IMG/VR virus record: IMGVR_UViG_3300020037_003876
Source of the DNA: a virus
DNA: 36,621 nt
Direction: 5' to 3' (one strand)
Shown here: piece by piece, positions 31,173-31,928 of the stretch
Numbering within the stretch: the first letter of the stretch is position 1
How the letters are laid out: every line of letters starts with the position of its first letter
Program-made: the position numbers and the translations under genes
Notes under the pieces: generated by a model
Told to the model about the DNA's origin: nothing
Database searches by the model: none
The model's input: the letters and a program-made list of their open reading frames with translations, nothing else

Positions 31173-31928
31173 ATGATAAAAATTCTGAATAAAAACGGCG
31201 AGCTTTTGCTAAGCGTGGACGTGGATACCCTGCGCGGTGCCAACCTGAGCTGTACCGACCTGCGCGGTGCCAACCTGAGCTGTACCGACCTGAGCGGTAC
31301 CGACCTGCGCGGTGCCAACCTGCGCGATACCGACCTGAGCTGTACCTACCTGCGCGGTTCCAACCTGAGCGGTGCCAACCTGAGCTGTACCGACCTGAGC
31401 GGTTCCAACCTGAGCTGTACCAACCTGAGCTGTACCAACCTGCGCGGTGCCAACCTGAGCGGTACCGACCTGCGCGGTGCCAACCTGAGCTGTACCGACC
31501 TGAGCGGTGCCGACCTGAGCTGTGCCAACCTGAGCGGTACCGACCTGAGCTGTACCAACCTGAGCTGTACCGACCTGCGCGGTACCGACCTGAGCTGTAC
31601 CAACCTGAGCTGTACCGACCTGCGCGGTGCCAACCTGAGCTGTACCGACCTGAGCGGTTCCAACCTGAGCGGTGCCAACCTGAGCGGTGCCAACCTGAGC
31701 GGTGCCAACCTGATAATAATTACATGGGAGCATTGGACAACATACATAACCAAAGACCATATCCGCATTGGATGTCAGTCACATGCGCTTGACAAATGGC
31801 GTGGATTTTCTGATAGCGAAATAGCTGGGATGGATACACGTGCGCTTGATTTTTGGAAAATTAACAAAGAATTGATTATTAGTCTTTGTGAGAGATTTGA
31901 AGAAAAAGCACCTGAAAAATCGGAATAA
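31173..31928 (+). CDS. Pentapeptide-repeat protein: 32 consecutive repeats plus an about 70-aa C-terminal domain.
   Basis: ATG 31173 follows acggag. The sequence L(S/R)(G/C)(A/T/S)(N/D) occurs 32 times, then IIITWEHWTTYITKDHIRIGCQSH... Confidence 0.95.
   Translation: MIKILNKNGELLLSVDVDTLRGANLSCTDLRGANLSCTDLSGTDLRGANLRDTDLSCTYLRGSNLSGANLSCTDLSGSNLSCTNLSCTNLRGANLSGTDLRGANLSCTDLSGADLSCANLSGTDLSCTNLSCTDLRGTDLSCTNLSCTDLRGANLSCTDLSGSNLSGANLSGANLSGANLIIITWEHWTTYITKDHIRIGCQSHALDKWRGFSDSEIAGMDTRALDFWKINKELIISLCERFEEKAPEKSE
31230..31709. repeat. Array of 32 tandem 15-nt DNA repeats (480 nt) encoding the pentapeptide coils.
   Basis: The exact 30-mer ctgcgcggtgccaacctgagctgtaccgac occurs at 31230, 31260, 31470 and 31620. 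All frames are open on both strands. Confidence 0.95.

What the first reader, a model, noticed from the sequence alone, without database searches (positions are those of the whole stretch)
31230..31709. 32 uninterrupted pentapeptide repeats encoded by near-identical 15-nt DNA units, with a 13-Cys ladder, in the first early operon
The protein (31173-31928) contains 32 consecutive L(S/R)(G/C)(A/T/S)(N/D) pentapeptides. That is enough for about 8 turns of a quadrilateral beta-helix, followed by a distinct roughly 70-aa C-terminal domain.

At the DNA level the repeats use almost one codon per residue. An exact 30-mer recurs four times (31230, 31260, 31470, 31620), and the segment is visibly more GC-rich than its surroundings. 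This points to recent expansion or concerted evolution, and to a recombination or slippage hotspot that could vary helix length. Thirteen repeats place Cys at the same repeat position, which is unusual for this fold.

Known pentapeptide-repeat proteins (Qnr, MfpA, AlbG) act as DNA mimics on gyrase. In an immediate-early phage gene next to a strong promoter, plausible roles are a DNA mimic aimed at host topoisomerase or at DNA-targeting defences. This is not demonstrated.
Basis: partly seen in the sequence, partly recalled or inferred. Interest (0 to 1): 0.6.

Follow-up and report, generated by a model that had tools for sequence, protein, structure and literature searches.

The report
Hypervariable pentapeptide-repeat phage early protein
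An early gene of an uncultured P22-like phage encodes a rod of 32 near-identical five-residue repeats joined to a conserved, undescribed end domain; a Vibrio phage relative of this large family is reported to help its phage escape a bacterial suicide defence, so this is most likely a fast-evolving counter-defence protein, not a gyrase DNA mimic.

Summary
Gene 31173-31928 (+) encodes 251 aa: a 19-aa cap, 32 uninterrupted pentapeptides (31230-31709) and a 72-aa C-terminal domain. Each residue type at each repeat position uses one codon. The 30-mer occurs four times. The array is 64% GC against 43% for the window. Thirteen Cys sit at repeat position i+2.

- **Family.** The C-domain has no Pfam, PDB-sequence or PDB-fold match. 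It defines about 2,600 clusters at 50% identity and is always C-terminal. It usually follows pentapeptide repeats, sometimes other solenoid repeats.
- **Array evolution.** Near-identical relatives differ by whole 15-nt units. P0001 has identical caps but 15 repeats. Substitutions in the one comparable pair are all non-synonymous.
- **Closest studied relative.** The C-domain core is homologous (hhalign 96.9%) to Vibrio phage 24 gp60, reported as a probable counter to the RexAB-like Sucellos system. P22-like Orf232 (phages ST64T and L) carries the gp60-type C-domain.
- **DNA mimicry.** Gyrase-type mimicry is not supported: array charge and length are not conserved, and the rod can be replaced by other repeat types.

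Best reading: a rapidly retargetable early counter-defence binder; its function is untested. The scan has reported this kind of gene before on other DNA, so this is a new member of a known kind.

The parts
30600..30810 (.). Divergent early control region. It holds promoter-like sites on both strands and repeated TTAGCA-type operator-like half-sites that overlap the -10 hexamers.
   Evidence: + strand TTGACA-17-TAATAT at 30742-30770 (10/12 match); - strand TTGACC-17-TAATAT with TG at 30635-30607; repeats ATATTAGCAT, ATGTTAGCAT, ATATTAACAT and a 30-nt inverted pair. These are consensus matches only.
30840..31112 (+). First ORF of the rightward (PL-like) early operon. It is a 90-aa protein with an N-terminal signal-peptide-like segment (MKKALLAVIFFAVSGMAVAG).
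   Evidence: translation; GGAG 6 nt before the ATG at 30840. No PHROG or Pfam match.
31131..31146 (+). Hairpin GCCCG-GAAAGA-CGGGC in the 60-nt spacer before the repeat gene. It looks like a boxB/nut site and has no following T-run.
   Evidence: sequence; fold. It is not conserved in relatives. Its function was not tested.
31173..31229 (+). N-terminal cap of the repeat protein (MIKILNKNGELLLSVDVDT, 19 aa), conserved in the family.
   Evidence: M1, I4, L5, G9 and L20 are invariant in 14 family members. The cap is identical in P0001.
31230..31709 (+). Array of 32 tandem 15-nt units encoding the pentapeptide-repeat rod (about 8 coils). There are 12 unit types and 13 Cys at i+2. GC is 64%.
   Evidence: PF00805 E = 4e-49. 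Residues 23-186 match the solved consensus pentapeptide solenoid 4yfo at E = 1e-48.
31710..31928 (+). Conserved C-terminal domain (72 aa plus stop): LIIITW..WTTYIT..HIRIGCQSH..W..FSD.EI..MD.RALDFWK.NKELI..LCERF. It is predicted as a 4-strand beta-meander plus 3 helices.
   Evidence: alignments. (AF2, pLDDT 86-93 over the core). (no Pfam, PDB-sequence or PDB-fold match). (2640 clusters). (hhalign to phage 24 gp60, 96.9%).
31934..32113 (+). 59-aa ORF directly downstream (phrog_16915, unknown function).
32223..32375 (+). Small conserved ORF of about 50 aa (start approximate). Homologues lie just downstream of the repeat gene in relatives L001, L003 and L004.
   Evidence: blastp 46-52% identity, E from 4e-7 to 2e-12.
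32761..36619 (+). Downstream recombination module of the same operon: a phrog_3657 protein (possibly a single-strand annealing protein), a RecE/YqaJ-like exonuclease, an HNH-like ORF and RdgC (3' end open).
   Evidence: The same module follows the repeat gene in relatives L001, L002, L018 and L026-L028.

Best explanation
The gene encodes an early accessory protein with three parts: a short cap, a right-handed quadrilateral beta-helix of 32 near-consensus pentapeptides, and a conserved phage-specific alpha/beta C-terminal domain.

The rod is the variable part. Units are gained, lost and exchanged by slippage, unequal recombination or gene conversion between the near-identical 15-nt units. This changes rod length and the exposed i-1, i+1 and i+2 residues, while the inward Leu and small i-2 residues are kept. 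The C-domain is the constant part. It probably caps the solenoid and provides a fixed contact, either dimerisation or a conserved partner.

By homology to Vibrio phage 24 gp60, the most likely role is to bind and neutralise, or evade, a host- or prophage-encoded defence. An abortive-infection or exclusion system of the RexAB/Sucellos type is the model case. The rod surface would supply the specificity.

- **Shown here:** architecture, family membership, early-operon position, array hypervariability, the pattern of variation.
- **Inferred:** beta-helix geometry (from sequence identity to solved consensus pentapeptide proteins), the recombination mechanism, the counter-defence function and its target.
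For: **Architecture and repeats:**

**Early operon.** Divergent promoter and operator region, a Cro/YdaS-like gene on the opposite strand, and a downstream recombination module. In relatives L005, L017, L024, L029 and L030 the gene follows a TTGACA-type promoter directly.

**Family.** The profile of the C-domain finds 2640 clusters at 50% identity, always C-terminal. Of the best 150, 123 have at least 4 pentapeptide units. The others carry different solenoids or are short.

**Hypervariability.**
- P0001 has 0/91 differences in cap plus C-domain, but 15 units against 32, and 7/75 differences in the aligned units (p = 0.003).
- Six pairs of relatives differ by 15 to 195 nt, always a multiple of 15, with near-identical flanks.
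- L001 against L003: 16 non-synonymous and 0 synonymous codon differences in the repeats, against 2 and 3 outside (p = 0.0075).
- Positional entropy over 1890 units: i 0.45 bits, i-2 1.7, i-1 2.3, i+1 2.9, i+2 2.9.
- Cultured phages L and ST64T (>99.9% identical) differ by one 15-bp unit in orf232 (PMC8022706). orf232 carries the gp60-type C-domain (100% identical to the Oslo gp46 C-domain and 62% to that of gp60).

**Function precedent.**
- hhalign of phage 24 SBVc24_0060 against the C-domain profile gives 96.9%, E = 1.4e-10.
- Deleting 24_60 makes phage 24 far more sensitive to Sucellos, and six escapers all carry changes in 24_60 (bioRxiv 10.1101/2024.07.02.601686).
- My inference: the escaper changes N110N, Y112R and N115D fit the spacing of one 'NLYGAN' unit turned into 'NLRGAD'. 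That would be a unit swap at exposed positions.
Against: - No experiment exists on this protein or its close subfamily.
- The gp60 evidence is a preprint phenotype without a mechanism.
- gp60 shares only the C-domain core (about 37% identity over 49 columns) and has a different last helix.
- The full-length AF2 model is poor (pLDDT 57), so the rod geometry rests on sequence similarity.
- All non-synonymous differences could arise from shuffling of pre-existing unit variants, without positive selection on new mutations.
- Repeat-number differences among metagenome contigs could partly be assembly collapse.
- The conserved synteny with recombination genes would also fit a role in recombination control.
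Confidence: 0.5

Rival explanations
1. Qnr/MfpA/AlbG-like DNA mimic. It would bind host gyrase or topoisomerase IV, or DNA-targeting nucleases such as restriction enzymes, by imitating B-form DNA.
For: - Same repeat class. QnrB1 and MfpA are found by sequence at E = 1e-11 to 4e-5.
- The whole protein is mildly acidic (pI 4.8, net -9).
- The gene is expressed early.
- RexA-type sensors are DNA-binding proteins (established knowledge), so a DNA-like rod could in principle block one.
Against: - Array net charge is not conserved in the family: -0.16 to +0.08 per residue, -0.03 here, +0.04 in gp60.
- Rod length varies from 4 to 46 units. Gyrase-directed pentapeptide proteins have a fixed size, and Qnr has defined loops (established knowledge). 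This array has no loops.
- The same C-domain is attached to LRR-like and other solenoids that are not DNA-shaped mimics.
- The best PDB matches are consensus and cyanobacterial pentapeptide proteins, not Qnr.
Confidence: 0.12
2. Accessory factor of the phage recombination module. It could be a Gam/Abc2-like inhibitor of host RecBCD or a modulator of the RecE/RecT-like proteins.
For: The gene sits upstream of an exonuclease, an annealing protein and RdgC in the window and in relatives L001, L002, L018 and L026-L028. This is roughly where lambda carries gam and P22 carries abc (established knowledge).
Against: - Salmonella phage Oslo carries both a family member (gp46) and Abc2 anti-RecBCD in the same operon.
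- In Vibrio phage 24 and Edwardsiella phage MSW-3 the homologue lies among methylase, helicase and primase genes, with no recombination module nearby.
- RecBCD is conserved, so there is no evident reason for a hypervariable surface.
Confidence: 0.1
3. The protein is the thing sensed (a trigger) or a neutral, self-expanding repeat. The array would vary because slippage is unavoidable, or because the phage is escaping recognition, not because it binds a target.
For: - One codon per residue and exact 30- to 59-nt internal repeats make slippage and recombination mechanically likely.
- Escaper mutations in a phage gene are also the classical signature of a sensed trigger (established knowledge).
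Against: - For gp60, deletion made the phage more sensitive to Sucellos, not less. That is the opposite of what a trigger predicts.
- The frame is always kept and the inward residues are conserved across 1890 units.
- The C-domain is under strong conservation in about 2,600 clusters. This argues for a selected function.
Confidence: 0.13
4. The count of 32 units, and part of the between-contig variation, is an assembly artefact of a short-read metagenome.
For: - The array contains exact repeats of up to 59 nt.
- The authors of the phage 24 study report that the repeated region of 24_60 was hard to assemble and had to be Sanger-sequenced.
- The exact protein is not found in any other assembly.
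Against: - 59 nt is shorter than usual reads and the larger assembly k-mers.
- The units form 12 types in a non-periodic order that gives unique context.
- Unit-number differences are documented in finished genomes of cultured phages.
- The reading frame and both caps are intact.
Confidence: 0.1

Closest known systems
Vibrio phage 24 gene 24_60 (SBVc24_0060, AIA08749.1), a probable anti-Sucellos (RexAB-like) protein (bioRxiv 10.1101/2024.07.02.601686)
   Same: - Phage early-region protein with cap, pentapeptide array and a homologous C-domain core: beta-meander plus the GCQS(H/Y)..W..F...I..MD..AL.F motif (hhalign 96.9%, E = 1.4e-10).
- One codon per residue in the array.
- The array is hard to assemble and mutable.
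   Different: - gp60 has only about 7-8 units in the GenBank copy, against 32 here.
- It has a different N-cap (the common 'H..W' pentapeptide cap) and a different last helix (YPRLL..IDFY against WK.NKELI..LCERF).
- Its array is net positive.
- Its neighbours are methylase and primase genes, not recombination genes.
- Activity against a defence has been tested only for gp60.
Orf232 of P22-like phages ST64T and L, ORF19 of ST104, gp46 of Salmonella phage Oslo, gp42 of epsilon34
   Same: - Early-left (PL) operon position in lambdoid/P22-like phages, between N/sieB and cIII-kil-erf.
- Pentapeptide array plus a C-domain of the gp60 type, which is homologous to the window's C-domain core.
- Documented gain or loss of one 15-bp unit between otherwise >99.9% identical phages (PMC8022706).
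   Different: - These belong to the gp60 subfamily of the C-domain (ALKFYPRLLDIIDFY plus an extra tail), not the ALDFWK.NK subfamily of the window.
- They have 15-18 units.
- They carry no Cys-rich units.
- No function has been published.
Consensus-like pentapeptide-repeat proteins with solved structures (designed 'beta1' solenoids 4yfo/4yc5; Nostoc Np275/Np276 2j8k; All3740 3du1)
   Same: Near-consensus A(D/N)LSG-type repeats. 4yfo matches residues 23-186 at E = 1e-48. This implies the same right-handed quadrilateral beta-helix.
   Different: These have no homologous C-terminal domain. They are cyanobacterial or designed, not viral. Their functions are unknown or artificial.
Qnr, MfpA and AlbG (topoisomerase-protecting pentapeptide proteins)
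   Same: The pentapeptide-repeat fold class. The C-terminus might mediate dimerisation, as in these proteins; this is inference only.
   Different: - They have a fixed length of about 8-10 coils, loops (Qnr) and electronegative surfaces.
- They are chromosomal or plasmid genes.
- The window protein matches them only weakly (E = 1e-11 to 4e-5), has no loops and belongs to a family with variable charge and length.

Membership tests
Pentapeptide-repeat proteins (Pfam PF00805; Rfr fold) | Tandem A(D/N)LXX pentapeptides, at least 8 contiguous copies, scoring above the Pfam gathering threshold | tested here: met
   164 bits against a cut-off of 20.2, E = 4e-49. 32 uninterrupted units.
Pentapeptide-repeat proteins (Pfam PF00805; Rfr fold) | Right-handed quadrilateral beta-helix with 4 repeats per coil | tested here: inconclusive
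   The full-length AF2 model has pLDDT 57. The fold is inferred from E = 1e-48 similarity to the solved solenoid 4yfo.
Phage 'solenoid + C-domain' family (Vibrio phage 24 gp60 / P22-like Orf232 superfamily) | C-terminal beta-meander plus helices with the motif I(G)C(Q/E)xH..W..F.D..I..M(D)..AL.F | tested here: met
   Alignments A1, A3 and A4. hhalign to gp60 gives 96.9%. tblastn to Edwardsiella phage MSW-3 gives E = 6e-9. BFVD fold hits are only to such phage proteins.
Phage 'solenoid + C-domain' family (Vibrio phage 24 gp60 / P22-like Orf232 superfamily) | Location in an early (pre-replication or recombination) operon of a phage | tested here: met
Phage 'solenoid + C-domain' family (Vibrio phage 24 gp60 / P22-like Orf232 superfamily) | Counter-defence activity (relief of Sucellos/RexAB-like exclusion) | not testable with these tools
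   Only gp60 has a phenotype. No defence system can be assayed here.
Qnr/MfpA/AlbG topoisomerase-directed DNA mimics | Fixed rod length matched to the gyrase DNA gate, with Qnr-type loops interrupting the helix | tested here: not met
   The 32 units are uninterrupted. The family ranges from 4 to 46 units.
Qnr/MfpA/AlbG topoisomerase-directed DNA mimics | Conserved, strongly electronegative surface | tested here: not met
   Array net charge is -0.03 per residue here. The family runs from -0.16 to +0.08.
Qnr/MfpA/AlbG topoisomerase-directed DNA mimics | Binding to or protection of gyrase or topoisomerase IV | not testable with these tools
   This needs a biochemical assay.
Pentapeptide + DUF5758 (PF19062) phage proteins (a lead from earlier scan notes) | C-terminal DUF5758 domain | tested here: not met
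   No DUF5758 hit at E <= 10 for the isolated window C-domain, two close family members (P0007, P0013) or three cultured-phage homologues, nor at E <= 1 for the full window protein.
Diversity-generating retroelement variable protein | A template repeat copy and a reverse transcriptase nearby, with variation at positions that are A in the template | tested here: not met
   No second copy of the repeat exists anywhere in the window. No reverse transcriptase was found among the ORFs I annotated. G/T variation at unit nt 7 is not adenine-based.

The most novel reading that the evidence does not exclude
The conserved C-domain is a universal docking or effector module. Phages attach interchangeable solenoid 'specificity rods' to it: pentapeptide, LRR-like, GDAxV-type or VEGD-type. 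The 15-nt unit arrays form a built-in, recombination-driven retargeting system. A single unit swap, as I infer for the phage 24 escapers, redirects the protein to a new allele of a host or prophage abortive-infection sensor. This would be a phage-side analogue of variable repeat receptors and would cover thousands of phage lineages.
Probability: 0.2. Interest if true: 0.75.

Novelty: new member of a known kind. Interest (0 to 1): 0.4.

Why it matters
If the counter-defence reading holds, this family (about 2,600 clusters at 50% identity) would be one of the largest groups of phage anti-defence proteins. It would also be an example of a protein whose binding surface is reprogrammed by unit-level recombination instead of point mutation.

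The window copy is an extreme case. It has 32 units, the second longest of 139 members sampled, and a ten-fold excess of exposed Cys. That makes it a useful specimen for asking what sets rod length and surface chemistry.

The C-domain has no solved or annotated relative and is a tractable structural target of about 70 aa.

On its own, this locus adds a member and some family-level observations: fusion of the C-domain to other solenoids, homology to gp60, and the unit-swap reading of the gp60 escapers. It is not a new kind of system. Phage annotators already label these genes as pentapeptide-repeat proteins, and the scan has reported the class repeatedly.

Tried and rejected
1. **DGR-type mutagenesis.** Considered because variation is mostly at codon first positions that are A in one variant. 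Rejected: there is no template copy, no reverse transcriptase among the ORFs I annotated, and the G/T site is not adenine-based.
2. **Catalytic Cys-His dyad in the 'GCQSH' motif.** Rejected: Cys or His is replaced in bona fide members (IGYEYH in L037, IRFELH in L040, GCKSY in L029, GCQSY in gp60).
3. **DUF5758 identity of the C-domain.** No hit.
4. **Sequence and fold searches of the C-domain against PDB.** Nothing beyond the repeats. The best Foldseek E-value is about 1.
5. **Full-length AF2 with a gapped family alignment.** pLDDT 57, unusable for the rod.
6. **Fetching the DNA of the closest relative, P0001.** Not on record in the look-up of encoding contigs and absent from the viral and metagenome contig collections. 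Only its protein could be compared.
7. **Nucleotide relatives of the window.** None in the phage or E. coli collections except repeat-only matches. No whole genome is held for the window.
8. **The look-up of sequencing runs.** Closed, so read-level length heterogeneity was not tested.
9. **Exact look-up of the window protein.** Not in the 15-billion-protein collection.
10. **Literature searches for a published mechanism of phage pentapeptide proteins.** Only the integron/Sucellos preprint and the phage L genome paper were found.
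Full report
**1. What is in the sequence**

The ORF at 31173-31928 (+) has a GGAG 8 nt before its ATG and encodes 251 aa. An upstream in-frame ATG at 31128 has no comparable ribosome site.

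Tandem Repeats Finder reports one array at 31229-31713 with period 15, 32.3 copies and score 606. Cutting 31230-31709 into 15-nt units gives exactly 32 units of 12 sequence types. All of them read L-(S/R)-(G/C/D)-(T/A/S)-(N/D/Y).

Codon use is uniform:
- Leu is always CTG.
- Position 2 is AGC or CGC.
- Position 3 is GGT, TGT or once GAT.
- Position 4 is ACC, GCC or TCC.
- Position 5 is AAC, GAC or once TAC.

All variation therefore lies at five nucleotide sites, at first or second codon positions. There is no synonymous difference in 160 codons.

Other features of the array:
- The 30-mer CTGCGCGGTGCCAACCTGAGCTGTACCGAC occurs at 31230, 31260, 31470 and 31620.
- The array is 64% GC, against 43% for the window and 38% for the rest of the gene.
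- Thirteen units have Cys at unit position 3.
- Arg at position 2 never accompanies Cys at position 3 (0/9 against 13/23, p = 0.004). This suggests two founder units, LRGAN and LSCTD, plus mosaics of them.
- A 30-nt consensus with up to 3 mismatches hits 15 times, all inside the array, with 0 expected by chance.

- With four units per coil, the Cys fall on all four corners (5, 4, 2, 2). The longest uninterrupted stack is four.
- The gene is the second ORF in the operon, not the first.
- The longest exact internal repeat is 59 nt.

**2. Genomic setting**

No whole genome is held for the window. Nothing in the phage or E. coli collections matches at nucleotide level except the repeats themselves.

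PHROG and Pfam annotation shows a nearly complete podovirus-like genome:
- On the minus strand, running leftward from about 30600: a Cro/YdaS-like HTH protein, a replication-initiator-like protein, NinB, a DNA methyltransferase, terminase, a P22-type portal, the major head protein, head-closure proteins and ejection proteins.
- The portal is closest to Pseudoalteromonas podophage H6/1 (40% aa) and Vibrio crassostreae podophages. It is 24% identical to P22-like portals.

Between 30600 and 30810 lie back-to-back promoter-like sites: TTGACC-17-TAATAT on the minus strand and TTGACA-17-TAATAT at 30742-30770 on the plus strand. Repeated TTAGCA-type half-sites overlap the -10 hexamers. These are consensus matches only.

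The plus-strand operon contains, in order:
- a 90-aa signal-peptide ORF (30840-31112);
- a boxB-like hairpin (31131-31146);
- the repeat gene;
- three small ORFs;
- a phrog_3657 protein;
- a RecE/YqaJ-like exonuclease;
- an HNH-like ORF;
- RdgC.

This is a PL-like early operon. In several relatives the repeat gene follows a TTGACA-type promoter directly.

**3. The protein family**

The repeats score 164 bits on PF00805. Residues 23-186 match the solved consensus pentapeptide solenoid 4yfo at E = 1e-48. Qnr and MfpA are far weaker, at 1e-11 to 4e-5.

The last 72 residues have no match in several searches:
- no Pfam match, even at E <= 10;
- no PDB sequence match;
- no PDB fold match for the well-modelled core, where the best E-value is about 1 (AF2 with a 28-sequence alignment, pLDDT 86-93, four-strand beta-meander plus three helices);
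- in the viral structure library, matches only to other phage 'pentapeptide' proteins.

A search restricted to this domain found proteins with the same three-part plan and a variable number of repeats. Contig searches added 39 loci.

A profile of the C-domain alone, scored against 1.84 billion representatives, found 2640 clusters at E <= 1e-3 and 1686 at E <= 1e-10. The domain is always at the C-terminus. Of the best 150:
- 123 have at least 4 pentapeptide units;
- the remainder are short, either stand-alone domains or fragments, or carry other repeats: GDAxVxG-type, VEGDxxV-type or NCTDC-type;
- metagenome loci L033-L038 carry LRR-like 'NCTGLTxLPxLPNL' repeats;
- two are tandem duplications of the whole unit.

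The C-domain is thus the constant module and the solenoid is exchangeable.

Neither the Cys nor the His of the 'GCQSH' motif is invariant. A catalytic dyad is therefore unlikely.

**4. How the array evolves**

It has 15 units instead of 32. Within the 15 alignable units, 7 of 75 residues differ, against 0 of 91 outside the array (p = 0.003).

Six further pairs with near-identical flanks differ by 15, 60, 75, 105, 135 or 195 nt, always whole units.

One pair of equal length allows a codon-by-codon comparison. L001 against L003 shows 16 codon differences in the repeats, all non-synonymous. Outside the repeats there are 2 non-synonymous and 3 synonymous differences (p = 0.0075).

Third codon positions are uniform within an array. 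Exchange of existing unit variants by gene conversion or unequal crossing-over would therefore produce exactly this pattern. It shows fast, protein-level diversification but is not a clean dN/dS test.

One codon per residue and a GC-rich array in an AT-rich gene are general family traits. Many distant members share the same codon set, CTG/GCC/GGT/AAC/GAC/CGC/AGC. This explains the 80% nucleotide matches to Salmonella and Rheinheimera phages.

Over 1890 units from 139 proteins, the positional entropy is:

| Position | Entropy (bits) |
|---|---|
| i (Leu) | 0.45 |
| i-2 | 1.7 |
| i-1 | 2.3 |
| i+1 | 2.9 |
| i+2 | 2.9 |

The residues that point inward in this fold (established knowledge) are conserved, and the exposed ones vary.

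Repeat number in this sample runs from 5 to 46, with a median of 13. The window is second longest. Cys at i+2 occurs in about 4% of units family-wide, against 41% here.

Independent evidence comes from cultured phages. L and ST64T are >99.9% identical, and one of their only two differences is a 15-bp unit in the early-left gene orf232 (PMC8022706).

**5. Link to a studied protein**

A tblastn search with the C-domain of Salmonella phage Oslo gp46 (itself found with the window's array and C-domain) gave these hits:
- ST64T Orf232, phage L, ST104 ORF19 and epsilon34, at 100% identity;
- Vibrio phage 24, at 62% identity.

The phage 24 gene is SBVc24_0060, which is gene 24_60 of the integron/Sucellos preprint. 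Profile comparison of its product with the window-type C-domain alignment gives 96.9% probability and E = 1.4e-10. The match covers the beta-meander and the MD..AL.F helix. The last helix differs.

The preprint reports the following:
- Sucellos is a two-gene, RexAB-like abortive-infection system.
- Six phage 24 escapers all carried Y112R with N110N/N115D in 24_60.
- Deleting 24_60 made the phage far more sensitive to Sucellos.
- The repeated region had to be re-sequenced by PCR and Sanger because it assembled poorly.

In the 140-aa GenBank copy, residues 110-115 are KALSFY, so the numbering must refer to a longer, re-sequenced allele. The spacing N-x-Y-x-x-N fits the unit junction 'NLYGAN', present at 40-45 in the GenBank copy. 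The changes convert it to 'NLRGAD', another unit type of the same array. Y to R needs two base changes, TAC to CGC.

My inference is that the escapers arose by a unit swap at exposed positions. The repeat surface, not the C-domain, would then set the specificity.

**6. Weighing the mechanisms**

The best-supported reading is a fast-evolving early counter-defence protein. A rigid rod carries a recombination-reshuffled surface on a constant C-terminal module. About 0.5 of my belief rests on the functional part. The structural and evolutionary parts are much firmer.

It is weakened by four observations:
- non-conserved charge, from -0.16 to +0.08 per residue, -0.03 here and +0.04 in gp60;
- rod lengths of 4 to 46 units;
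- the absence of Qnr-type loops;
- replacement of the rod by LRR-like and other solenoids.

It is not excluded for particular members. RexA-type sensors bind DNA (established knowledge), so a DNA-like rod could still be the way a sensor is blocked.

A Gam/Abc-like role is suggested by synteny with recombination genes. It is weakened because Oslo carries Abc2 as well, and because the phage 24 and MSW-3 homologues lie among replication genes.

A 'sensed trigger' reading conflicts with the gp60 deletion phenotype.

Mis-assembly of the unit number cannot be excluded without reads.

A DGR mechanism is rejected.

**7. Novelty and score**

Phage annotators already call these genes pentapeptide-repeat proteins. 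Unit indels were noted for L and ST64T, and one homologue has a preprint-level phenotype.

The scan's own notes list many follow-ups of the same class on other DNA. I treated these as leads and re-tested the ones I used:
- the gp60 link;
- Orf232;
- the absence of DUF5758 here;
- similarity to consensus solenoids;
- exposed-residue variation.

This report adds the following for this locus and subfamily:
- the size of the family and the strictly C-terminal position of the domain;
- its fusion to non-pentapeptide solenoids;
- a confident fold model with no PDB relative;
- quantified array-versus-flank divergence;
- the unit-swap reading of the gp60 escapers;
- the unusual Cys enrichment, which remains unexplained.

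Verdict: a real feature and a new member of a known but functionally unproven kind. Interest is 0.4.

Noticed in passing
window 29664-29746 (inside the minus-strand replication-initiator-like gene 29220-30134): There are 5.5 perfect tandem copies of a 15-nt unit (GGAATCAGTATTAAG). They encode (DSLNT)x5 in the protein's linker. This resembles iterons of an origin embedded in the initiator gene, as in lambda O.
   Followed up: no
window 31131-31146: A hairpin GCCCG-GAAAGA-CGGGC lies between the first ORF and the repeat gene. It resembles a lambdoid boxB/nut site. No N-like protein was identified, and the hairpin is not conserved in relatives.
   Followed up: partly
window 30840-31112: The first gene of the early operon encodes a 90-aa protein with a clear signal-peptide-like N-terminus and no database match. 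A secreted or membrane protein made first in infection could be a superinfection-exclusion factor.
   Followed up: no
window ~32223-32375 and 32375-32635: A small ORF of about 50 aa is conserved just downstream of the repeat gene in relatives L001, L003 and L004. Its stop overlaps (ATGA) the start of a hydrophobic ORF of about 86 aa. They may form a functional pair with the repeat gene.
   Followed up: partly
L033, L034, L035, L038, L040 (metagenome loci); P0069, P0073, P0118, P0133, P0140, P0161: The same C-terminal domain is fused to LRR-like (NCTGLTxLPxLPNL), GDAxVxG-type, VEGDxxV-type and NCTDC-type repeats instead of pentapeptides. The LRR-like arrays also vary in copy number (153 against 271 aa).
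   Followed up: partly
window 492-2947 (+): Three plus-strand genes sit at the far end of the genome, including a DHH-family phosphoesterase (phrog_4771, E = 6e-90) next to two proteins of unknown function. A phage DHH phosphoesterase could degrade nucleotide second messengers of defence systems.
   Followed up: no
P0017 and P0018 (representative proteins): These two proteins contain the whole pentapeptide-plus-C-domain unit twice in tandem. This suggests that paralogous copies arise by duplication and can fuse.
   Followed up: no
window 30600-30810: No cI-type repressor gene lies between the divergent early promoters, unlike in lambda or P22. No integrase was seen among the ORFs I annotated. 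Where the repressor that presumably binds the TTAGCA-type repeats is encoded, and whether the phage is temperate, remain open.
   Followed up: no
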